This document shows, one piece after another, positions 45,494 through 55,283 of a stretch of DNA of 64,000 nucleotides. The stretch spans positions 76,463-140,462 of the forward strand of contig CAYVYK010000001.1 in the NCBI GenBank assembly GCA_964455675.1. The letters are read 5' to 3'. Source of the DNA: an uncultured Methanosarcinales archaeon. GTDB taxonomy: Archaea; Nanobdellota; Nanobdellia; Woesearchaeales; CAYVYK01. The number at the start of each line of letters is the position of its first letter. Positions within the stretch are counted from its first letter, which is position 1. The position numbers and the translations under genes were made by a program. The notes under the pieces are model-generated. The model saw only the letters and a program-made list of their open reading frames with translations. It did not search any database and was not told the origin of the DNA.

Positions 45494-45604
45494 AGCGGGG
45501 AGAGGGACTCGAACCCCCGAATAAACGCTCTCAGCTAGTCATCGCTTGGTAGCTCCTCAGAGCCGTTCTGCAGGCGCTCGCCTTAGCCGCTTGGCTATCC
45601 CCGC
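45494..45604 (-). tRNA. tRNA-Cys(GCA) with a 38-nt intron at about 37/38 (45530..45567)
   Basis: Acceptor stem GCGGGGA/TCCCCGC, discriminator U73, anticodon stem AGCGC/GCGTT, loop CT-GCA-G..A, T-loop TTCGAGT; 73 nt after intron removal. Confidence 0.85.
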
Positions 45605-46928: not shown

Positions 46929-46962
46929 TCCTGCTCGTATTTTTTCTTATTGAAAAAGAAGG

Positions 46963-47076
46963 TGGACAGCTTTCTCGGGTTCCCGTTCACAAGAACAGTA
47001 CCACCGAGAACGTAGACCTGCTTGACTTCCGTGTTCGAAATGGGAACGGGTATGACCAGGCCGCTATGACCGTCCA
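46963..47076 (-). rRNA. rrf: 5S rRNA (stand-alone, not linked to 16S/23S)
   Basis: Minus strand TGGACGGTCATAGCGG...ACCCGTTCCCATTTCGAACACGGAAGTCAAGC...GCTGTCCA with paired ends and the loop C signature, followed by a T-rich tract. Confidence 0.92.
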
Positions 47077-47097
47077 GGACGAAGGAGTTATACTCCA

Positions 47098-47159: not shown

Positions 47160-48107
47160 TTAAAGGGCAGTATCATGCACGAGATGCTTCTTTCGCAGCC
47201 ACAGGAATGCGGGCACGGCCATGACGACTGTCGTAATAATGATGATTGCACGGTCAATGAGCGCAACGATGAGACCTTGGCTGAGTTCCGTGCCTCCTAG
47301 CGTGGAAAGGACTGTGATGACAGTTTCTCGTATTCCGATCCCTGCGGGGAGGATATTGATGAGACTCGCAAGGCCCACGAATGACCCGATTACCATCGAG
47401 TTCAGGAGGGTTATTGGTGCTCCGAGCATACGGAACTCAATGTAGTACCTGATCACGAACTGCGCCCATATCAGGAATTCGATAAAGATGAGTCGGGCTA
47501 GCAGCCAGTAATTCTTCCGAAGATGATACCACTCATTCGCGACTTCGACGATATAGTTGTAGATTCGTGACGTTCGTGGAGTGAGTGTTGGAGTCAGGAA
47601 AGCAGCTGCGATGATAAGAATTGCTGCTGCGCTGACGATAATGAGATGCCAAATTCCAAAGAGGTTGTGCTTTAGCCCGATGATGAGCGCAAAGAGGAGC
47701 GTTAGTGCCCCATAGAGGAGCAATGATATGACGCCCGAGGATACATGGATGGTTAGTGATGACGCAATCTTGAGCTGCTTGAATTTTTTCATGTACGCAG
47801 CCCGTAGTGCGGCTCCCCCTCTGATGGGTATCACGAGGTTATACAGCCTAGTAAGTGATGTGATGTGGAGCCACTCATCCCACGTGAGGTGGAGGTTGTA
47901 GTGCTTTGTATAGATCTTGAGTTTATATCCGATGAGTACGACGGCAAAGATCGTAATGATGAAGAGTAATGCGACGCCCCAAGGATTTACTTCAAGGAGC
48001 GGTCTGATTTCTTCTGGTTTCCTCACTACAAGAGCGATGCTGATGATGATAACCGCAAGAAAGACTATTGTTCCGATAATGTTCTTGACGGATTCCTTCA
48101 TATGCAA
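47160..48107 (-). CDS. Lysylphosphatidylglycerol synthase TM-domain / UPF0104 flippase-like membrane protein
   Basis: Eight or nine TM helices with LYNLVIPIRGGAALRAAYMK and ILPAGIGIRE...ALIDR motifs. Confidence 0.8.
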   Translation of the reverse strand: MHMKESVKNIIGTIVFLAVIIISIALVVRKPEEIRPLLEVNPWGVALLFIITIFAVVLIGYKLKIYTKHYNLHLTWDEWLHITSLTRLYNLVIPIRGGAALRAAYMKKFKQLKIASSLTIHVSSGVISLLLYGALTLLFALIIGLKHNLFGIWHLIIVSAAAILIIAAAFLTPTLTPRTSRIYNYIVEVANEWYHLRKNYWLLARLIFIEFLIWAQFVIRYYIEFRMLGAPITLLNSMVIGSFVGLASLINILPAGIGIRETVITVLSTLGGTELSQGLIVALIDRAIIIITTVVMAVPAFLWLRKKHLVHDTAL

Positions 48108-48168: not shown

Positions 48169-48960
48169 CTACTCGATATCGCGTACGTCTTTCATGCTGT
48201 GAATGTGCGCTTCGCGCTCGCTGCTGACATGTCCAAACAGCACTCCCGCTTTGGCAAGTTGCGGAAACACGTCTTGCTCAATGCTTTTTCCTGAGTATTC
48301 AAGGACCTCGGGCTCCGCAACGAATATGCTCGAGAATCCGAGGTATTCCTGTGATTTTTCTGTGTGCTGAATGAACTCAAGTATCTTGCTTCCCTCCATT
48401 TTGACGGTTCCTTTTTTTGCTGGTGACGTCGTAAGGAGGAGCGTTGCTGCACCATTATGCACAAGGTGATCATTCCAGAGTGCATTGACATTAACCTTCG
48501 CAAAGTAAATGTCCCCATAGACGATGAGGCAGCGGGTCGTGATTTTTCCTCGAACTGCTTTAAGTGATTCCATTGAGCCCTTGGCTTGTCGATCTTCCAC
48601 ATAAGTGAGATGGACTCCAAACTTTGTCCCCTCTTGCACGAGTGTAAAGACCGCTGTGAGAATCTGCTGCTCACCGATGAGGTAGACGTTCGTGAATCCT
48701 GCTTCCTTGAGTTTTCGCAGGTTTCTGCTGATGAGTGGAACCCCCTTGATGGGTATGGTTGTGCGGTAATAACCTCCCTCGATGGATTGTCCCCTCGCAG
48801 GCCCTCCCGCAAGGATGACCGCTGTCTTTTGCTGCCCAAGCGCCTTTCCAACAAGGTGCTCGACTGCTTGGCTTCGGTTCCTGATGTAGAGGCCATCAAC
48901 GATAGAGTCAACTGCCGTGAGCGTCTTTGCATTCAGTGTGATACTGACCTTGTTTTTCAT
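48169..48960 (-). CDS. Ribbon-helix-helix (CopG-like) domain fused to a degenerate sugar-phosphate nucleotidyltransferase domain, 263 aa
   Basis: N-terminal KVSITLNAKTLTAVDSIV...RNRSQAVEHLV (RHH); then AVILAGG lacking the GTR and PK residues, plus YGDIYF. Confidence 0.75.
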   Translation of the reverse strand: MKNKVSITLNAKTLTAVDSIVDGLYIRNRSQAVEHLVGKALGQQKTAVILAGGPARGQSIEGGYYRTTIPIKGVPLISRNLRKLKEAGFTNVYLIGEQQILTAVFTLVQEGTKFGVHLTYVEDRQAKGSMESLKAVRGKITTRCLIVYGDIYFAKVNVNALWNDHLVHNGAATLLLTTSPAKKGTVKMEGSKILEFIQHTEKSQEYLGFSSIFVAEPEVLEYSGKSIEQDVFPQLAKAGVLFGHVSSEREAHIHSMKDVRDIE

Positions 48961-48998
48961 TGGTGCGAAATAGTCGAGTATTACGAGGTATATAAATA

Positions 48999-49018
48999 TG
49001 TCGGATTTTTATCCGACA
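48999..49018. promoter_or_regulatory. Perfect 8-4-8 inverted repeat TGTCGGAT-TTTT-ATCCGACA between divergent promoters; candidate operator
   Basis: Lies between a minus-strand ATATTTATATA box (about 48987-48998) and a plus-strand AAGATATTTATA box (about 49034-49045). Confidence 0.55.
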
Positions 49019-49068
49019 AAGTAGGATATCGGTAAGATATTTATAGGACCAGATGCCTCCGAATTGAT

Positions 49069-51753
49069 ATGAAAATCACAATGATAGGCACAGGCTACGT
49101 TGGGCTTGTCACAGGAACATGCCTTGCAAACTTGGGCAACAACGTTATCTGTTTGGACATAGACGAGCACAAGATTGAGCAGCTCAAGCGAGGCATTATG
49201 CCTATCTATGAGCCAGGCTTGGGCGATCTGGTTATTCGTAATATGAAGGAAGGAAGGTTATCTTTCACAACGGATAAGCAGCGCGCTATCCAGGAAAGTG
49301 ATATTATTTTCATCGCAGTGGGAACGCCTCCGCGCGACGACGGTTACCCGGACGTTACGTTTGTCGATCAAGCTGCCGCTGATATTCTGAAGTTCATGAA
49401 CGCTGAAAAGATTGTTGTCGTGAAAAGTACTGTTCCTGTGGGTACGAATAGTCGTGTCAAAGAGTTCCTTTCTTCAAGGCAGGATTTTCCGATTCATGTA
49501 GTCTCAAATCCTGAGTTCTTGAGGGAGGGAAAGGCAGTGCGTGATTTTAACATCCCTGATAGAATCGTGATCGGTACAGATTCCACGTATGCAAAGAAGG
49601 TTATGGTTGATCTCTACAAACCGCTTGAGCGTGCGGATAAGCCGATCATTGTGACGGATGTTGCTTCGGCAGAGATTATCAAGTATGGCTCGAATGCGAT
49701 GCTTGCGGCAAGGATCAGTTTCATCAATCTTCTCTCAGAGCTCTGTGAGAAGGTTGGCGCTGATATTAGGGCAGTGGCGAAAGGTATAGGTCTTGATAGC
49801 AGGATTGGTCCGAGGTTTCTTCAGGCGGGCGCAGGCTATGGTGGGAGCTGTTTTCCAAAGGATGTGAAAGCATTGATATCTACTCTTGAGCATAATGCGA
49901 TTCCCTCTGATTTTTTCCAAAGTGTTGAGAACGTGAACGCCCGGCAGAAGGAAAAGGCCGTGGAAAAGCTTCAGTTACTCCTCGGTAATCTGCGAGGTAA
50001 GAAGGTTGGTCTGCTTGGCCTTAGCTTTAAGCCCGAGACTGATGACATGCGTGATGCCCCGTCAGTTGTAGCGGTTCGTCAACTGCAGAGCTACGGAGTG
50101 CATGTTGTAGTATTTGATCCTGTTGCAATGGATAATGCAAAAAGGATTCTACCGCAAGTCCATTTTGCGAATAGTCCCTATGAGGTCTGTGACGGTGCTG
50201 ACGGAGTGATTCTCATGACCGAGTGGGATGAGTTCCGGTCGCTCGATAAATCTCGTATGTTACAGTTGATGAGATCGCCAAATTTTGTTGATGCAAGGAA
50301 CCTGTATGATCCAGCAGAGATGGTACGGCTGGGCTTTAGGTATGATTCGATCGGCAGATTGACGCCAGAAAAGGCAGCAGAGGGAACAGAGGGGATCCTG
50401 CGTCTTCTGCAAAAGTACGGCCAAGAGCATTTGCTCTCATATTGGGACGCGATATCTCCAGAGGAGCGGCAGATACTCATTCAGCAGATATCGTCAGTTG
50501 ATCTCGAGCGTCTGAGAGAGCTTCATATAAATGGTGATGTTGCGGTTCCATCTCAAATCGATCCGTGGGAGGATATTGTTGTTCCAGAAAGCGATCCTGA
50601 ATTGTCTCTGCAGGCAAAGAAGCTTGGAATTCAAGCGATCAAGCAGGGAGAGGTTGGGCTCTTTGTGGTGGCAGGTGGCCAAGGAACAAGGCTTGGTTTC
50701 AAGGGACCGAAGGGGGCGTTTGTCATTTCCCCGATTTTGCAGAAGAGCATCTTTCAGCTTCATGCGGAGAAGATTCGTGCTCTCGAGAAGAGGTATGGTG
50801 TAAGTCTTCCTTGGTTTATCATGACTTCGCCCGACAATCATAAGGAGACATGTGAATTCTTCGCGCTCCATGGTAATTTTGGTCTTTCCGATGTCTTCAT
50901 CTTTCCGCAGGAGATGCTTCCCTCATTGGATATGGATGGCAGGATGGTGCTGAAGTCACCCTACGAGATCATGATGAATCCCGACGGCCATGGGGGCTCT
51001 GTCCGTGCGCTTGCAAAGACCGGGGCTCTTGACACGATGAAACGGCTGGGCATCAAGTACTTGTTCTATTTCCAAGTGGATAACATCCTCATCAACATCG
51101 CAGACCCACTATTTATTGGGTATCACATCCAAAAGAATGCTGAGATGTCCGCAAAGTGCGTCGAGAAAACTGGTCCAGAAGAGAAGCTTGGTGTGTTTGG
51201 AAAGGTGAACGGTAGGCCAGGAGTGATTGAGTATCATGAGCTCTCCGACGAATTGAGGCACGCAAAGGACGCCCACCAAAACGCATTGTTTGGTAAGGGA
51301 AGTATCGCAATCCATGTGCTGAGTACAGATTTTCTTGAGAGGCTGAGCACTCATCCGTCGGATTTGCCATTCCATCGCGCAGTTAAGAAGGCACACACCG
51401 TGCATGGGGAAATTGAGGTAGTAAAATTTGAGAAATTCATTTTTGATGCGCTACCGCATGCAAAGACGATTATGATAATGTGCGTTGACCGCAGCACGGA
51501 GTTTGCTCCGGTAAAGAACGTGACGGGTGTGGATAGCGCCGAATCTGCAATTGAGATGCAGACTGCTCTCTTTGCTGGATGGCTAAAGGATCTTGGTGTC
51601 GTGATCCCTCGTGATAAAAGTGGGAATTTGGAGGGTCACATAGAGATCAGTCCGCTATTCGCTCTTGATAGGGAGGAACTTGCAGAAAAACTTGATCCCG
51701 CAAAGGTTAGGTTTAAACCAGGGATTGGTCTTGCGCTTGATGCCCAAGGGTAG
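49069..51753 (+). CDS. ugd: Fusion of UDP-glucose/GDP-mannose dehydrogenase family domain (about aa 1-432) and UDPGP-family (UAP1-like) UDP-sugar pyrophosphorylase (about aa 440-894)
   Basis: GTGYVGL, SNPEFLREG, catalytic GGSCFPKD, FKPETDDMR; then AGGQGTRLG, PKG, PDGHGG, VDN, KFEKFIFD, FAPVKN. No stop at the junction. Confidence 0.9.
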   Translation: MKITMIGTGYVGLVTGTCLANLGNNVICLDIDEHKIEQLKRGIMPIYEPGLGDLVIRNMKEGRLSFTTDKQRAIQESDIIFIAVGTPPRDDGYPDVTFVDQAAADILKFMNAEKIVVVKSTVPVGTNSRVKEFLSSRQDFPIHVVSNPEFLREGKAVRDFNIPDRIVIGTDSTYAKKVMVDLYKPLERADKPIIVTDVASAEIIKYGSNAMLAARISFINLLSELCEKVGADIRAVAKGIGLDSRIGPRFLQAGAGYGGSCFPKDVKALISTLEHNAIPSDFFQSVENVNARQKEKAVEKLQLLLGNLRGKKVGLLGLSFKPETDDMRDAPSVVAVRQLQSYGVHVVVFDPVAMDNAKRILPQVHFANSPYEVCDGADGVILMTEWDEFRSLDKSRMLQLMRSPNFVDARNLYDPAEMVRLGFRYDSIGRLTPEKAAEGTEGILRLLQKYGQEHLLSYWDAISPEERQILIQQISSVDLERLRELHINGDVAVPSQIDPWEDIVVPESDPELSLQAKKLGIQAIKQGEVGLFVVAGGQGTRLGFKGPKGAFVISPILQKSIFQLHAEKIRALEKRYGVSLPWFIMTSPDNHKETCEFFALHGNFGLSDVFIFPQEMLPSLDMDGRMVLKSPYEIMMNPDGHGGSVRALAKTGALDTMKRLGIKYLFYFQVDNILINIADPLFIGYHIQKNAEMSAKCVEKTGPEEKLGVFGKVNGRPGVIEYHELSDELRHAKDAHQNALFGKGSIAIHVLSTDFLERLSTHPSDLPFHRAVKKAHTVHGEIEVVKFEKFIFDALPHAKTIMIMCVDRSTEFAPVKNVTGVDSAESAIEMQTALFAGWLKDLGVVIPRDKSGNLEGHIEISPLFALDREELAEKLDPAKVRFKPGIGLALDAQG

Positions 51754-51755
51754 TG

Positions 51756-52838
51756 CTACAGATTCGCTGTTTCCACGACAATTGTTTTTTTGCTTGGGTG
51801 GATTTCTTGGATAACAGACTTTTTTGTTATCTTTTCTTGTAGTTTCGAGAGGGGAATCTCTTTTCGTATGCGTAAAAATTCGGCGAGGACATGTTGTATC
51901 TCTTGGTACCGTTCATAGATGAGATTTCCCTTTGCCTGGTTTTGAGCTATCTCTTCGTTCCACGTTGTGATATTGTCCTCCTGTTTCTCGATGATCTTGA
52001 GGAACCGTTGAGTTTCTTTTTCTTTTCGCGTTGGGGGTAATATCACTTTTTCGTGGAGATGATACTGTTCCAGCGCTTCGCTAAAGCTAGCGTGTTCCGT
52101 TGCAGTATAGGATTCATATTTGTGTAAAGGTAGACACGTTGCATCGATAATGTCCGAAGGGTTTGAATAGGTGTAACCTCTCTTGGGCGAATGGAGGAGG
52201 GTTTGATGCGTCGTAATGATGACGTTCAATTGCTCCGAGGTAATGTTCTTGGTATGCTTGTCAATTCCGCTGATGAGGCAAAGTTCTTCGGCGTAGTTTC
52301 CTCCAAGGCCTGCATGCCGCGCAAGATATGCAACAAGACCAAGTGCTGAGAGTGATTCGTTGATTGCTGCCAGGTTCTTTTGTTCAAGCGGTTCTCCGCT
52401 CGTCGGCAAGTGGTATGTTTCTTTTGGCTGGCGTTCCAGCGCGTTCTGGACCATACGCTGCTGGTCGATGACAAGAAGGTTTCCCTTGCGGAAGAACTCA
52501 AGGATGATTGACTTGGTCTCTTCCCCGCATGCTGTGGTAATTTCGATAATGCGCTCTCCTGGTGCTTGGCTTACCTTCATGATTCGTGCATTTTCAAAGT
52601 GTTTCCGAAGGTACTGGCAGAAACCGTAGGGCGTTTGTGGCGCGGGCGGCCGTTCCTGTGCGATATAGATGAGCCGCGGAAGTACAATGCGCAACGTGGT
52701 CTTTCCTTTTCCCGAAGTGAAGAATTGGAAGAGGAAGTCTCGCTCTGCGAGCTGGTAGATGTTGTCAATTCTTGCTCCAACAAGGGTTTGGAGTTCCTCT
52801 ACGACATAATGGATTTCGATGCCTGAGAGCGCTTTCAT
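51756..52838 (-). CDS. NFACT/Rqc2 family protein, N-terminal part only (NFACT-N, HhH, first coil), 360 aa
   Basis: GARIDNIYQ, FCQYLRKHFENARI..VSQ..GERI, IILEFFRKGNLLV, GLGGNYAEELCLISGIDK; ends without an NFACT-R domain. Confidence 0.8.
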   Translation of the reverse strand: MKALSGIEIHYVVEELQTLVGARIDNIYQLAERDFLFQFFTSGKGKTTLRIVLPRLIYIAQERPPAPQTPYGFCQYLRKHFENARIMKVSQAPGERIIEITTACGEETKSIILEFFRKGNLLVIDQQRMVQNALERQPKETYHLPTSGEPLEQKNLAAINESLSALGLVAYLARHAGLGGNYAEELCLISGIDKHTKNITSEQLNVIITTHQTLLHSPKRGYTYSNPSDIIDATCLPLHKYESYTATEHASFSEALEQYHLHEKVILPPTRKEKETQRFLKIIEKQEDNITTWNEEIAQNQAKGNLIYERYQEIQHVLAEFLRIRKEIPLSKLQEKITKKSVIQEIHPSKKTIVVETANL

Positions 52839-52863: not shown

Positions 52864-53562
52864 TTAAACTTGATGGAAATGGTGCTCGGCGCGGGCGATA
52901 TCAGCAGGGCATCCGAGATCGATCCATGAGTCCTGAAGGATCATCACGTGTACGTTCTGTTCTTTGGCGAGGATGTTGATGGCATCTGTGATATAATATT
53001 CTCCGCTGATGCTTGGTTTAATGTGTTTGAGCGCAGGAAAGATGAGCGATGTGAACTTGTAGAGTCCTGCGTTGATAATGTTTGATGGGGGATGAACTGG
53101 CTTTTCGATGATGCGTCGTAGCTTCGTTCCTTGATACTCGAGAACGCCATATTTTTCCGGGCATTCACTGCGCGTTCCGCACACAGTGCAGTCTTCCTTT
53201 GCCTGGATGAGTTGTTGTATGTCTCGTAGAGAGTAGTAGTTGTCGCCGCTGATGACGATGAACGGACTTCCGTCGGTAAACGATTCGGCTGCTGCGATGG
53301 CGTCTCCCGTGCCGAGCATGGATCGCTGCTCGATGTATGTTACATCAAATGCTCCTTTGTAGGTTGTATCAACATAGGTGATGATCTGGTCTTTGAGATA
53401 GTGAACGATAATTCCAATTTCTCGTATGTGTGCTTCTTTGAGTGCGTCAAGGATGTATCCGAGGAATGGTTTGCCGTGGATCGGGATGAGTGGCTTTGGT
53501 CGGTTGTTGGTAAGTTCTCCCATCCGCATTCCTTTTCCTGCCGCAAGGATGACTGCTTTCAT
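52864..53562 (-). CDS. Sugar-phosphate nucleotidyltransferase (GlmU-N/RmlA-like), 232 aa
   Basis: MKAVILAAGKGMRM..LT..RPKPLIPI, LGTGDA, GDN, IIEKP, INAGLY, WIDLG.P.DI. Confidence 0.9.
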   Translation of the reverse strand: MKAVILAAGKGMRMGELTNNRPKPLIPIHGKPFLGYILDALKEAHIREIGIIVHYLKDQIITYVDTTYKGAFDVTYIEQRSMLGTGDAIAAAESFTDGSPFIVISGDNYYSLRDIQQLIQAKEDCTVCGTRSECPEKYGVLEYQGTKLRRIIEKPVHPPSNIINAGLYKFTSLIFPALKHIKPSISGEYYITDAINILAKEQNVHVMILQDSWIDLGCPADIARAEHHFHQV

Positions 53563-55283
53563 TCGTGTTTCTCCACATTTCCATTATTGATAAAGGTTGT
53601 GTCCACAAGACTGATGATCTGTCCTGCGAGCTTTTGTGGATCGTGGCGCAGCAGGTCGCGCTTGTGCCAGAATCGTGTGACCGCTGTTCCTGTCGGGATA
53701 TCGCCAAGAAGGTCCGCAAGTATTGGCGATGTGCCAAGCCGTTCTATCTCCTCAAGGTCAACTTTAACGAGGAAGGATTTTTGCTGTTCGTACTGGTGGA
53801 GAACGTGCAAATCTGGGCTTCGAACGTTGAGCAGGCAGTAATCAATCTTTGCTCCGCATGCACTCTGTACTGATTTGAGATGGTCTGATGCGGTGAAGAT
53901 GTCCGTTTGATATGGTTGTGTCACAATGTTGCAGACATACAGTTTCACGGCTTTGGTTGTTCGAAGCGCTTCTGCAATTCCTGGGATGAGAAGGTTCGTG
54001 ATGATACTGGTATAGAGGCTTCCGGGACCGATGATGATGAAGTCTGCGTCAAGAATCGCTTGTACTGCAGGAGCGTACGCTTCTGGGTGTGTTGGTTGCA
54101 GGTACGCATCAGTGATTCTTGATGGTTTCTTGTCGTGTTCAAACCTCTGCACGACCTGGTCCTCAGATTCGCTCACGGTTCCATCTTCACGCCGAACGCA
54201 GATGTTGATGTCATCAAGGGTTGCGGGGTACACTTTTCCCGAGACATTCAGGATCTTGCTCGCTTCGATAATGGCTTGCTCAAAGCTTCCGGTCATTTTG
54301 GTAAGTCCGGCAATGAGGAGGTTCCCGAGGCTCTGTCCTTCCAGGTTTCCTTCGGTAAATCGATAGTTAAAGAGCTTAAGGAGCAGGTCTTCCGCATCCG
54401 ATAGGGCCACAAGATTGTTTCTGATGTCTCCCGGAGGAAGCATGCCAAGCTCTTTGCGGAGTGTCCCGCTGCTTCGTCCGCTGTCCGTCATCGTCACGAT
54501 TGCAGTGATGTTCTTGCTGTAGTGCTTGATGCCTTGGAGGAGCATGGGCATTCCTGTTCCTCCTCCGATGGCGACGATTTTTGGTCCTTTCTTCAGGTAG
54601 ATTTCTCTATCCGTATGCTCGAGGAGTGTTGCGACGTCACCTAGCGTTTTAATTTCGTAGTCTGGAATCTCGAGTTGGTTTTTCGGGGTGAGAACAGAGT
54701 ATTTTCCATGGAGTAGCCTTGCGGTAATCATGCCAAGCTTGTTCGCTGACTTTATTTCGTTGTCGATTCTGTCCCCGACGCATAAGACCTGTCGTGGTTT
54801 GAGATTGAGCGATCGTAGTATCTTGAGGAATTTTTCTTCTTTTGAAGGATTGGTATCAATGATGATGATGTCAAAGTAGTCGGCAAGGCCGAGGAGCTCG
54901 ACTTTTTTTCCTTGGAACGAGGGATCTCCCGTAGTGACAAGGCAGAGCTTGACATGGTTCTTGAGCTCAGCAAGGAGGTCTGCTGTTTCGGGGAATGGAA
55001 CAATGCCGTGGAGGTGTTCTTCTTGGAGGTATGCTCCTCGTCCAATGGTTCGTAATTCTGCTTTTTTTATTGCAGCAAGCTCGTAGGATTCAAGAAGCTC
55101 ATCGAGGAGCACCGCAAAGTGTGGAGTAGTTATTGCTCGCATCTTTTCGCGAAGATTGTTCGGAGTATCTAGTCTCTGCCTGCCAAGCGCTTCCGCGACC
55201 GCTGCAAGGGCCGCAGGAGTTACCTGTGTAGTTTGGTCAAAAAGCGTGTCGTCAAGGTCAAAGATCACGGCTTGGATTTTCAT
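53559..55283 (-). CDS. Fusion of a HAD-superfamily hydrolase and a YvcK/GlmR (UPF0052/CofD-like) domain, 574 aa
   Basis: HAD motifs FDLDDTL, LVTTG, K, VGDRIDNEI; then KIVAIGGGTG, DSGRSSGTLR...PPGDIRN, GPGSLYTSII.NL, RHDPQKLA. Confidence 0.88.
   Translation of the reverse strand: MKIQAVIFDLDDTLFDQTTQVTPAALAAVAEALGRQRLDTPNNLREKMRAITTPHFAVLLDELLESYELAAIKKAELRTIGRGAYLQEEHLHGIVPFPETADLLAELKNHVKLCLVTTGDPSFQGKKVELLGLADYFDIIIIDTNPSKEEKFLKILRSLNLKPRQVLCVGDRIDNEIKSANKLGMITARLLHGKYSVLTPKNQLEIPDYEIKTLGDVATLLEHTDREIYLKKGPKIVAIGGGTGMPMLLQGIKHYSKNITAIVTMTDSGRSSGTLRKELGMLPPGDIRNNLVALSDAEDLLLKLFNYRFTEGNLEGQSLGNLLIAGLTKMTGSFEQAIIEASKILNVSGKVYPATLDDINICVRREDGTVSESEDQVVQRFEHDKKPSRITDAYLQPTHPEAYAPAVQAILDADFIIIGPGSLYTSIITNLLIPGIAEALRTTKAVKLYVCNIVTQPYQTDIFTASDHLKSVQSACGAKIDYCLLNVRSPDLHVLHQYEQQKSFLVKVDLEEIERLGTSPILADLLGDIPTGTAVTRFWHKRDLLRHDPQKLAGQIISLVDTTFINNGNVEKHE

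What the first reader, a model, noticed from the sequence alone, without database searches (positions are those of the whole stretch)
49069..51753. Ugd fused to a eukaryote-type (UAP1/UDPGP family) pyrophosphorylase
Seen: a complete dehydrogenase followed in frame by a complete UDPGP-family domain. Established: archaea usually make UDP-sugars with GlmU/RmlA-type enzymes, whereas the UDPGP family is mainly eukaryotic with scattered bacterial members; the two activities are consecutive (sugar-1-P to UDP-sugar to UDP-uronate). Inference: a channelled two-step enzyme making UDP-GlcA or UDP-GlcNAcA, probably with a horizontally acquired second half.
Basis: partly seen in the sequence, partly recalled or inferred. 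Interest (0 to 1): 0.68.

Follow-up and report, generated by a model that had tools for sequence, protein, structure and literature searches.

The report
One-off archaeal Ugd–UDP-sugar pyrophosphorylase fusion
An uncultivated sludge archaeon has two complete sugar-nucleotide enzymes (UDP-glucose dehydrogenase and a UAP1/AGX-type UDP-sugar pyrophosphorylase) joined into one 894-residue protein, apparently by one extra T in an overlapping stop/start codon; the architecture was found nowhere else, but the chemistry is ordinary.

Summary
Window 49069..51753(+) is one 894-aa ORF with a complete Ugd (aa 1-430) and a complete UAP1/AGX-clade UDPGP enzyme (aa 431-894). Both catalytic sets are intact. 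No second protein or locus with both domains fused turned up in two very large protein searches or among 167 related loci.

The join has no added linker. The DNA reads AGA-TTG-ACG; removing one T gives AGATGACG, an ATGA stop/start overlap that restores '...SIGR*' and 'MTPEKAAEG...'. A related archaeal contig (L082) has the unfused cluster ugd -> NTP-transferase -> UDPGP, with the same ATGA overlap after ugd. So this is probably a young fusion of translationally coupled operon neighbours.

The host is archaeal (RadB, RPA, an intron-bearing tRNA). The UDPGP family is not 'mainly eukaryotic': thousands of bacterial homologues and a small archaeal clade exist. The origin of the C-half is unresolved.

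Function is inferred only. The best guess (about 0.45) is Glc-1-P + UTP -> UDP-Glc -> UDP-GlcA. The main rival (about 0.3) is parallel supply of UDP-HexNAc and UDP-GlcA. A flexible linker and pTM 0.62 give no support for a physical channel. Support for the join comes from contigs of two runs in one study; raw reads were not available. Interest is modest.

The parts
49069..51753 (+). Fusion ORF, 894 aa plus stop codon (P0001)
   Evidence: An identical ORF is on Logan contig L001.
49069..50358 (+). N-half, aa 1-430: UDP-glucose 6-dehydrogenase. Contains GTGYVG (aa 7-12), K205/N209, catalytic Cys261 in GGSCFPKD (aa 258-265), and ends ...YDSIGR430.
   Evidence: Pfam and NCBIfam, motifs, Foldseek target TM-score 0.90-0.96 to BceC, UgdG and 3gg2. 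Standalone Ugd proteins end 0-6 residues after GR, with one exception at 14.
50359..50421 (+). Junction: codon 431 TTG (50359-50361) followed by the UDPGP enzyme's own N-terminal tail (aa 431-451), which acts as the linker. Deleting one T at 50359/50360 restores an ATGA stop/start overlap.
   Evidence: Sequence. pLDDT about 63 for aa 431-440. The tail length of 21 residues falls at the mode of standalone homologues.
50422..51750 (+). C-half core, aa 452-894: UAP1/AGX-clade UDP-sugar pyrophosphorylase. Contains GGQGTRLG (536-543), K548, M585, Q614, PDGHGG (638-643, H641), FQVDN (668-672, Q669, D671), L707-G708, E721-Y722, S745, H749, F790, F792, K816.
   Evidence: Foldseek target TM-score 0.82-0.89 to 8yp3, 1jv1 and 4bma.
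49040..49047 (+). TATA-like TTTATAGG, ending about 21 nt before the ATG; a possible archaeal promoter for a near-leaderless transcript (inference only)
   Evidence: Sequence inspection.
49000..49017 (.). Perfect hairpin GTCGGAT-TTTT-ATCCGAC in the divergent intergenic region; a possible operator (speculative)
48169..48960 (-). Context: divergent 263-aa gene, a ribbon-helix-helix-like N-terminus plus a weak sugar-1-P nucleotidyltransferase domain
52864..53562 (-). Context: 232-aa RmlA/AglF/archaeal-GlmU-N-domain-type sugar-1-P nucleotidyltransferase; an alternative supplier of UDP-Glc or UDP-GlcNAc
   Evidence: PF00483 E 3.9e-39. Arch_glmU 217 bits, rmlA_long 172, AglF 159, all below their cut-offs.
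53559..55283 (-). Context: HAD phosphatase fused to a YvcK-type UDP-GlcNAc-binding domain; overlaps the nucleotidyltransferase gene by 4 nt
   Evidence: TIGR01826 315.8 bits (cut-off 196). Pfam CofD and HAD.
47160..48107 (-). Context: flippase-like / LPG_synthase_TM membrane protein

Best explanation
This is a genuine gene fusion in a DPANN-like archaeon, and so far the only example found.

Origin (inferred from the sequence). ugd and a UDPGP-family gene were adjacent and translationally coupled through an ATGA stop/start overlap. Insertion of one T (AGATGACG -> AGATTGACG, nt 50359/50360) destroyed the TGA stop, turned the ATG into Leu-431 (TTG) and put both ORFs in one frame. The pyrophosphorylase's own ~20-residue N-terminal tail now serves as the linker. 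Nothing else was added or lost.

Function (inferred; no assay). Both halves keep all catalytic residues. The C-half condenses UTP with a sugar-1-phosphate, and I think Glc-1-P is the most likely substrate. Four residues that line the AGX1 substrate pocket are replaced by H641, Q669, L707 and S745, three of them larger side chains, and His is the residue UGPases and USPases carry at the first of these positions. The N-half oxidises UDP-Glc with 2 NAD+ to UDP-GlcA. The product would feed surface or N-glycan synthesis. The fusion provides 1:1 co-expression and proximity. A real substrate tunnel is not indicated.
For: Real ORF. The sequence is identical in Logan assemblies of two samples, and no indel allele was seen. 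Composition is uniform and archaeal genes lie on both sides.

Origin: the junction sequence and the one-T reconstruction give '...SIGR*' and 'MTPEKAAEG...'. The 21-residue tail before the conserved Gln matches standalone homologues (range 12-31, modes 19-21). Standalone Ugd proteins end 0-6 residues after GR. L082, an archaeal contig, has ugd -> NTP_transferase -> UDPGP on one strand, with GGAAGATGAAGG (an ATGA overlap) after ugd. Its Ugd is 51% identical to the N-half and its UDPGP is 47% identical to the C-half.

Competent domains: motifs, AF2 mean pLDDT 91.2, Foldseek.

UDP-Glc-type dehydrogenase.

Altered pocket: alignment to AGX1 combined with the pocket-residue list in PMC9105790. H and Q are invariant in 44 prokaryotic homologues. 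UAPs are said to need a larger pocket than UGPases and USPases to fit the N-acetyl group (PMC3888555). One plant UAP isozyme also uses Glc-1-P (PMC6329318).

Precedent: Haloferax AglF + AglM convert Glc-1-P to UDP-GlcA in a coupled assay (PMC2913515).

Complementarity: the nearby RmlA-type transferase resembles the archaeal GlmU N-domain and is in an operon with a UDP-GlcNAc-binding YvcK domain. It may therefore be the UDP-GlcNAc enzyme, which would leave UDP-Glc to the fused UDPGP.
Against: By overall similarity the C-half is a UAP (GlcNAc-1-P enzyme): 252 bits to UAPs against about 50 bits or less to UGPases and USPases. F790 and F792, which align with the AGX1 pocket positions F381 and F383, are conserved.

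No member of the prokaryotic H/Q clade has a known substrate. I found no paper on one, and NCBIfam has no model for it.

In L082 it is the RmlA-type transferase, not the UDPGP, that is ATGA-coupled to ugd. That suggests the RmlA-type enzyme is the UGPase there.

Other archaeal UDPGP genes are not next to ugd. Only 1 of about 170 bacterial or metagenomic loci has both genes nearby.

A one-off fusion made by a 1-nt insertion may be recent and neutral rather than selected.

The join rests on low-depth contigs (about 9x and 7.5x) from one study. Raw reads could not be inspected, and no X2 contig crosses nt 50376.
Confidence: 0.45

Rival explanations
1. Parallel rather than sequential supply. The C-half is a true UDP-GlcNAc/UDP-GalNAc pyrophosphorylase. 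The N-half oxidises UDP-Glc made by a neighbouring RmlA/AglF-type nucleotidyltransferase. The fusion co-delivers two donors (UDP-HexNAc and UDP-GlcA) for one HexNAc + HexA glycan, much as ugd and a UDP-GlcNAc pyrophosphorylase gene co-occur in hyaluronan operons (the operon comparison is my own knowledge).
For: The C-half is far closer to UAPs than to UGPases or USPases. JGI names its homologues UDP-GlcNAc/GalNAc diphosphorylase. F790 and F792, aligned with the AGX1 pocket positions F381 and F383, are conserved. Two RmlA-type transferases flank the gene. In L082 ugd is ATGA-coupled to the RmlA-type gene, with the UDPGP as the third gene. A UDP-GlcNAc-binding YvcK domain lies in the neighbourhood.
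Against: The pocket residues N223, C251, V289 and N327 are replaced by H, Q, L and S, and the H and Q are invariant across the prokaryotic clade. The automated names are unverified. The nearby RmlA-type enzyme looks at least as much like an archaeal GlmU N-domain as like AglF.
Confidence: 0.3
2. The C-half is a broad UDP-sugar pyrophosphorylase working in salvage (for example GlcA-1-P, Gal-1-P or Xyl-1-P). The two halves would then converge on UDP-GlcA by a de novo route and a salvage route.
For: The His at the N223 position and the FQ-DN-type motif resemble UGPases and USPases (own knowledge of those motifs). USPases accept many sugar-1-phosphates, including GlcA-1-P (PMC6329318). A natural kinase-pyrophosphorylase fusion for UDP-GlcA salvage exists in zebrafish (PMC3938481).
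Against: Similarity to solved USPs is very low (E about 2e-8). I saw no anomeric sugar kinase in the neighbourhood. The neighbours of the bacterial homologues give no hint of salvage.
Confidence: 0.08
3. UDP-GlcNAc -> UDP-GlcNAcA: the C-half makes UDP-GlcNAc and the N-half oxidises it at C6.
For: The C-half is UAP-like. Archaeal N-glycans often contain N-acetylated uronic acids (own knowledge).
Against: The N-half scores 506 bits (TuaD) and 377 bits (AglM) as a UDP-Glc dehydrogenase. It scores only 51 bits against TviB (UDP-GlcNAc 6-dehydrogenase) and 153-158 bits against UDP-ManNAc dehydrogenases. It is 45-48% identical to solved bacterial UDP-Glc dehydrogenases.
Confidence: 0.05
4. Artefact: the extra T is an assembly or sequencing error, or a minority allele. 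The organism would really have two separate ATGA-overlapped genes.
For: The whole fusion depends on one base in a TT dinucleotide. The architecture is a singleton. Depth is low, only contigs could be checked, and both runs come from one study. Logan contigs drop rare variants.
Against: Two separately assembled samples and the deposited 234-kb contig all carry TT with 0 differences. No indel allele appeared at a 1% share threshold. Indel errors at a 2-base run are rare in short-read consensus (own knowledge).
Confidence: 0.07

Closest known systems
Haloferax volcanii AglF + AglM (archaeal N-glycosylation)
   Same: An archaeal pair that turns Glc-1-P + UTP + NAD+ into UDP-GlcA in a coupled reaction (PMC2913515). 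The pathway logic matches the proposed sequential mechanism.
   Different: AglF and AglM are two separate polypeptides. AglF is an RmlA/GalU-type NTP_transferase (PF00483), not a UDPGP (PF01704). The N-half scores 377 bits against the AglM equivalog, below its cut-off of 670.
Unfused archaeal cluster on L082 (JGI 3300009008): ugd -> NTP_transferase -> UDPGP (P0121)
   Same: The same two gene families sit on one strand in an archaeal contig, at 51% and 47% identity to the two halves. There is an ATGA stop/start overlap after ugd and an NFACT gene nearby.
   Different: The genes are separate, and an RmlA-type transferase lies between them. The genome is AT-rich and only distantly related.
Eukaryotic UAP1/AGX1 UDP-GlcNAc pyrophosphorylases (1jv1, 4bma, 8yp3)
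   Same: Same three-part fold (target TM-score 0.82-0.89), 31-33% identity, and the GGQGTRLG loop, K122, M165, Q196, D253, E303, Y304, H331, F381, F383 and K407 equivalents are all conserved.
   Different: Pocket residues N223, C251, V289 and N327 are H, Q, L and S here. The protein is prokaryotic, fused to Ugd, and its substrate is unknown.
Bacterial UDP-glucose 6-dehydrogenases (UgdG 4a7p, BceC 2y0c, P. gingivalis 3gg2, TuaD)
   Same: 45-48% identity, target TM-score 0.90-0.96, and NAD-binding and catalytic Cys/Lys/Asn/Asp motifs all present.
   Different: The C-terminus continues into a second enzyme. The score is below the TuaD equivalog cut-off (506 against 700).
Natural bifunctional nucleotide-sugar enzymes (GlmU; zebrafish glucuronokinase/pyrophosphorylase; Bacteroides Fkp)
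   Same: Two steps of one sugar-nucleotide pathway are carried on one chain (PMC3938481; PMC11267548).
   Different: The domain families and reaction pairs are different. None joins a Ugd to a UDPGP enzyme.

Membership tests
UDP-glucose/GDP-mannose dehydrogenase family (Ugd, EC 1.1.1.22) | All three Pfam domains (N, central, C) above the gathering score; TIGR03026 above its cut-off | tested here: met
   PF03721 214.9, PF00984 114.9 and PF03720 105 bits. TIGR03026 scores 451 against a cut-off of 189.8.
UDP-glucose/GDP-mannose dehydrogenase family (Ugd, EC 1.1.1.22) | NAD-binding GxGxxG, the catalytic Cys in GGxCxxKD, and the Lys/Asn/Asp triad | tested here: met
   GTGYVG at 7-12; GGSCFPKD at 258-265; KYGSNA at 205-210.
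UDP-glucose/GDP-mannose dehydrogenase family (Ugd, EC 1.1.1.22) | Equivalog-level assignment (TuaD or AglM) and UDP-Glc specificity | tested here: inconclusive
   TuaD 506 bits (cut-off 700) and AglM 377 bits (cut-off 670) are both below cut-off, but far above TviB (51) and UDP-ManNAc dehydrogenases (153-158). Activity was not assayed.
UDPGP family (PF01704), UAP1/AGX clade | Pfam gathering score; full-length match to solved UAPs; same fold | tested here: met
   145.4 bits against a cut-off of 22. 8yp3 residues 9-461 of 482, E 1e-73. Target TM-score 0.82-0.89.
UDPGP family (PF01704), UAP1/AGX clade | Nucleotide-binding loop (GGQGTRLG...PKG) and the catalytic Lys equivalent to AGX1 K407 | tested here: met
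   GGQGTRLGFKGPKG at 536-549; K816 in FAPVKN.
UDPGP family (PF01704), UAP1/AGX clade | AGX1-type substrate-pocket residues N223, C251, V289 and N327, as in enzymes shown to use GlcNAc-1-P | tested here: not met
   The residues here are H641, Q669, L707 and S745. H and Q are invariant in 44 prokaryotic homologues. For this reason I do not file the C-half as a GlcNAc-1-P-specific UAP.
Channelled bifunctional enzyme | Two active sites on one polypeptide | tested here: met
   A single ORF with both catalytic sets intact.
Channelled bifunctional enzyme | The product of one site is the substrate of the other | not testable with these tools
   This depends on the sugar-1-P specificity of the C-half and needs an enzyme assay.
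Channelled bifunctional enzyme | A fixed inter-domain interface or tunnel | tested here: inconclusive
   pTM is 0.62 despite a mean pLDDT of 91, and the linker (aa 431-440) has pLDDT about 63. This suggests flexibly tethered domains. No PAE or coordinates were available.

The most novel reading that the evidence does not exclude
The prokaryotic 'H/Q-pocket' branch of the UAP1/AGX clade is an uncharacterised specificity class: a UGPase or broad USPase with a UAP-like fold. This archaeon would then carry a natural single-chain UDP-GlcA synthase, caught just after its birth by a one-base insertion in an ATGA stop/start overlap. That would be a clean natural example of how translationally coupled neighbours become a bifunctional enzyme, and a ready-made biocatalyst for UDP-GlcA.
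Probability: 0.3. Interest if true: 0.55.

Novelty: new variant of a known kind. Interest (0 to 1): 0.4.

Why it matters
If the fusion is active in sequence, it is a natural one-protein route from Glc-1-P to UDP-GlcA. UDP-GlcA is the donor for hyaluronan, heparosan and chondroitin-type polymers and for many archaeal N-glycans, so such an enzyme would be useful for enzyme cascades.

The junction also shows in unusually clean form how a bifunctional enzyme can arise from an operon: one inserted base in an ATGA overlap, with no linker added.

The finding also flags that a large prokaryotic branch of the 'eukaryote-type' UAP family has an invariant, different sugar pocket and no known substrate. 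Automated names such as 'UDP-GlcNAc diphosphorylase' for thousands of proteins may therefore be wrong.

None of this overturns established knowledge. Both domains and the pathway are well known.

Tried and rejected
- P0241 (1888 aa) and P0254 (1447 aa) looked like possible second fusions in the exhaustive search. They are Aphanomyces gene models with tandem UDPGP domains and no Ugd.
- The X2 contig break right at the domain boundary (50375|50377), with lower depth in the next 297 nt, suggested a strain with unfused genes. No alternative contig, joint or indel appeared at 80% likeness and 1% share. The gap is the third base of Ala436 (GCA). It lies 16 nt downstream of the TT site, which the X2 contig does cover. 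I read it as a low-depth drop-out or a synonymous SNP.
- I scanned the gene neighbours of 58 bacterial UDPGP loci for a substrate clue. They are TPR, ankyrin, FGE-sulfatase, LemA and release-factor genes, which is uninformative (one search failed on the size limit).
- The NJ tree of the C-half is unresolved: best sister group 30/100 (one search timed out).
- A profile search with the block alignment A5, intended as an architecture search, returned only the window's own protein, although single-domain homologues should also have passed. I treat this as a tool quirk and do not rely on it.
- The window's own protein is also missing from the 50%-identity representative library and from the C-half word search. 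Fusions can therefore be hidden in those searches.
- The first block alignment, A4, misaligned the UDPGP set. It was replaced by A5.
- Peneff 2001 (the AGX1 structure paper) is not held, and no paper mentions 8YP3. I found no literature on a natural Ugd-pyrophosphorylase fusion or on bacterial 'UDPGP type 1' enzymes.
- No RNA runs hold the gene.
- I considered a recent foreign origin for the C-half by composition. GC, GC3 and codon use are no different from the neighbours.
Full report
**Observation.** The window has one ORF at 49069..51753 (+): 894 codons with an ATG start. Pfam places the three UDP-glucose/GDP-mannose dehydrogenase domains at aa 1-415 and UDPGP (PF01704) at aa 532-818. A PDB sequence search shows both halves are full length. 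Ugd structures match aa 2-430 (4a7p, E 5.8e-136). UDP-GlcNAc pyrophosphorylases match aa 442-873 (8yp3, E 4e-73; AGX1 1jv1, E 8e-64). UGPases reach only about E 1e-12 and USPs about 2e-8.

**Is the ORF real?** Both halves are in the same frame with no stop, and the other two frames show no hidden gene boundary. GC, GC3 and codon use of both halves match the surrounding genes. Archaeal genes lie on both sides. Upstream are replication factor A, a lone 5S rRNA and a 111-nt intron-bearing tRNA. Downstream are an RqcH/NFACT homologue and RadB.

The identical protein is encoded on a 13.5-kb Logan contig assembled independently from one sludge run, which covers the gene with 0 differences at depth 9. 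A second sample from the same study has identical contigs, but they break at 50375|50377 and 50673|50694. No alternative path, joint or indel was seen, even at 80% likeness and a 1% share threshold. Only these two runs hold the sequence, and no RNA run does. Raw reads were not available, so the join rests on contig-level evidence.

**How rare is the architecture?** Every search for a second example came back empty.
- A search of 5.8 billion protein clusters with the full protein returned only the window's own protein (a one-member cluster) with both domain sets. Other long hits are tandem Ugd-Ugd proteins, intein-bearing Ugd proteins of Woesearchaeota/Nanobdellota, or Ugd-glycosyltransferase fusions.
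- A search with the C-half gave only standalone proteins, mostly about 470 aa.
- An exhaustive HMMER pass over 1.84 billion representatives listed no Ugd+UDPGP protein in the best 150. Two long candidates proved to be oomycete tandem-UDPGP gene models.
- Scans of 185,579 species genomes and of JGI metagenomes gave 160 loci, each matching one half only. tblastn over all 167 fetched loci found both genes together only twice, unfused: L014 (Actinomycetota, 3.9 kb apart) and L082.
- Caveats: the window's own protein is missing from the representative library and from the C-half hit list, so these searches have blind spots. A profile search meant as an architecture query behaved oddly.

**The unfused counterpart.** The top-scoring relative of the C-half, P0121, lies on a 33-kb archaeal contig, L082, which also carries ribosomal L37ae, eRF1, Pcc1, prefoldin and NFACT. 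There it is the third gene of a same-strand cluster: ugd (51% identical to the N-half), then a 249-aa RmlA-type NTP_transferase, then the UDPGP gene (47% identical to the C-half). The ugd stop overlaps the next start as ATGA. P0121-P0126 and P0129 form a coherent clade in a neighbour-joining tree, and two of its members sit on archaeal contigs. The other members I looked up are not next to ugd.

**How the fusion arose.** Standalone Ugd proteins end 0-6 residues after the conserved '...S(I/V)GR', with one exception at 14. Standalone UDPGP proteins carry 12-31 residues (modes 19-21) before the conserved Gln of 'GQEH'. In the fusion, R430 is followed directly by L431 (TTG), and exactly 21 residues lead to Q452. 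No linker was added. The DNA reads ATC GGC AGA TTG ACG CCA. Deleting one T gives AGATGACG. In the ugd frame this reads '...SIGR*'. One base back it reads ATG ACG CCA ... = 'MTPEKAAEG...', which is the frame the C-half uses today. This is the same ATGA overlap seen in L082.

The simplest history is therefore a single T insertion in the stop/start overlap of two translationally coupled genes. That fits the singleton status, meaning a young event. It also means the whole finding depends on one base. Both Logan assemblies carry TT.

**Are the two halves functional?** The N-half has GTGYVG, K205/N209 and the catalytic Cys in GGSCFPKD. It scores as a UDP-glucose dehydrogenase: TuaD 506 bits and AglM 377 bits (both below their equivalog cut-offs), and TIGR03026 451 bits (above its cut-off). 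It scores far lower against UDP-GlcNAc and UDP-ManNAc dehydrogenases, at 51 and 153-158 bits.

The C-half keeps the GGQGTRLG loop and the equivalents of AGX1 K122, M165, Q196, G222, D253, G290, E303, Y304, A329, H331, F381, F383 and K407. Four AGX1 pocket positions differ: N223->H641, C251->Q669, V289->L707 and N327->S745. N223, C251 and V289 are listed as pocket residues in PMC9105790; the role of N327 in sugar binding is my own recollection. H and Q are invariant in 44 prokaryotic homologues, whereas every solved UAP has Asn and Cys there.

An AlphaFold2 model built on a block alignment is confident for both halves (mean pLDDT 91.2). It dips to about 63 at aa 431-440, and pTM is only 0.62, which suggests two well-folded domains on a flexible tether. 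Foldseek matches the N-half to Ugd structures (target TM-score 0.90-0.96) and the C-half to UAP structures (0.82-0.89). No solved chain spans both halves.

**What it most likely does.** Everything here is inference, because nothing was assayed.

The sequential reading is Glc-1-P + UTP -> UDP-Glc -> UDP-GlcA. Five points favour it:
- The fusion and operon logic link the two genes.
- There is a Haloferax precedent: separate AglF and AglM proteins carry out exactly this pair of reactions in a coupled assay (PMC2913515).
- Three of the four pocket substitutions introduce larger side chains. UAPs are reported to need a larger pocket than UGPases and USPases to fit the N-acetyl group (PMC3888555).
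- One plant UAP isozyme also uses Glc-1-P (PMC6329318).
- The neighbouring 232-aa RmlA-type transferase looks like an archaeal GlmU N-domain and is in an operon with a YvcK-type UDP-GlcNAc-binding domain. It may be the UDP-GlcNAc enzyme.

The parallel reading has the C-half making UDP-HexNAc, the N-half making UDP-GlcA, and both products feeding one glycan. Two points favour it. The C-half is much closer to UAPs overall. And in L082 it is the RmlA-type gene, not the UDPGP gene, that is coupled to ugd.

I put the sequential model at about 0.45 and the parallel model at about 0.3. Salvage by a USP-like enzyme, a UDP-GlcNAcA route and an artefact are each below 0.1.

- The family is not mainly eukaryotic. 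Of 8000 scored candidates, 5489 match the C-half at E<=1e-5. The named ones come from KSB1, Calditrichota, Planctomycetota, Verrucomicrobiota, Lentisphaerota, Kiritimatiellia and others, and there is also a small archaeal clade.
- Horizontal origin of the C-half can be neither shown nor excluded. It is 41-50% identical to bacterial and archaeal homologues alike. It sits on a long unsupported branch, and its composition is native.
- 'Channelled' has no support from the model.

**Verdict.** This is a real and so far unique domain architecture built from two ordinary enzymes. It was most likely created recently by a one-base insertion in an ATGA overlap. I classify it as a new variant of a known kind, of modest interest (0.4). 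Its main value is as a clean example of how a fusion is born, as a candidate single-chain UDP-GlcA synthase, and as a pointer to an uncharacterised prokaryotic branch of the UAP family.

Noticed in passing
window 53559-55283 (-): A 574-aa protein fusing a HAD-IA phosphatase (aa 1-220) to a YvcK-type UDP-GlcNAc-binding CofD-related domain (TIGR01826, 315.8 bits against a cut-off of 196). It overlaps the upstream-strand nucleotidyltransferase gene by 4 nt. This is another unusual sugar-nucleotide-related fusion in the same neighbourhood.
   Followed up: partly
window 48169-48960 (-) and intergenic 48961-49068: A 263-aa protein with a ribbon-helix-helix-looking N-terminus (VSITLNAKTLTAVDSIV...RNRSQAVEHLV) joined to a weak sugar-1-P nucleotidyltransferase domain, transcribed divergently from the fusion gene. 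The intergenic region holds a perfect hairpin GTCGGAT-TTTT-ATCCGAC (49000-49017) and two TATA-like boxes. This could be a sugar-nucleotide-sensing regulator and its operator.
   Followed up: no
window 14268-43968 (-): A run of seven very large same-strand ORFs (1480, 3041, 966, 1217, 482, 1317 and 1405 aa), as often seen for giant surface proteins in DPANN-type archaea. Not examined.
   Followed up: no
window 45494-45604 (-) and 46961-47077 (-): A 111-nt tRNA found by Rfam but missed by ARAGORN, so presumably intron-bearing, and a stand-alone 5S rRNA gene with no 16S or 23S rRNA gene in the window.
   Followed up: partly
run X2, window 50375-50377 and 50673-50694: The Logan contigs of the second sample break 1 nt apart, close to the domain boundary, and again 300 nt later. 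The piece in between has lower depth (4.7 against 7.5 and 8.3). No alternative allele was recovered. The cause (a SNP bubble or a coverage drop-out) is unresolved.
   Followed up: partly
proteins P0002-P0011 and P0014-P0118 (hits): Many Woesearchaeota/Nanobdellota Ugd homologues carry inteins (PF14528, PF14890). A separate group of ~945-aa proteins are tandem Ugd-Ugd. P0115 joins Ugd to a phosphoglucomutase domain I (PF02878), and P0056, P0061 and P0275 join Ugd to glycosyltransferases.
   Followed up: no
window 51756-52838 (-); L082 1012-2025: The NFACT/RqcH homologue is only 360 aa and matches only model positions 1-377 of the 645-aa archaeal RqcH model. A similarly short NFACT_N gene lies near the ugd cluster in L082, hinting at conserved synteny.
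   Followed up: no
loci L015-L081 (PVC-group bacteria): In many Verrucomicrobiota, Lentisphaerota and Kiritimatiellia loci the standalone UDPGP gene is preceded on the same strand by a ~1050-aa TPR protein (7 with a TMEM260-like O-mannosyltransferase domain) and followed by a ~170-aa gene. This is a recurrent, unexplained neighbourhood.
   Followed up: partly
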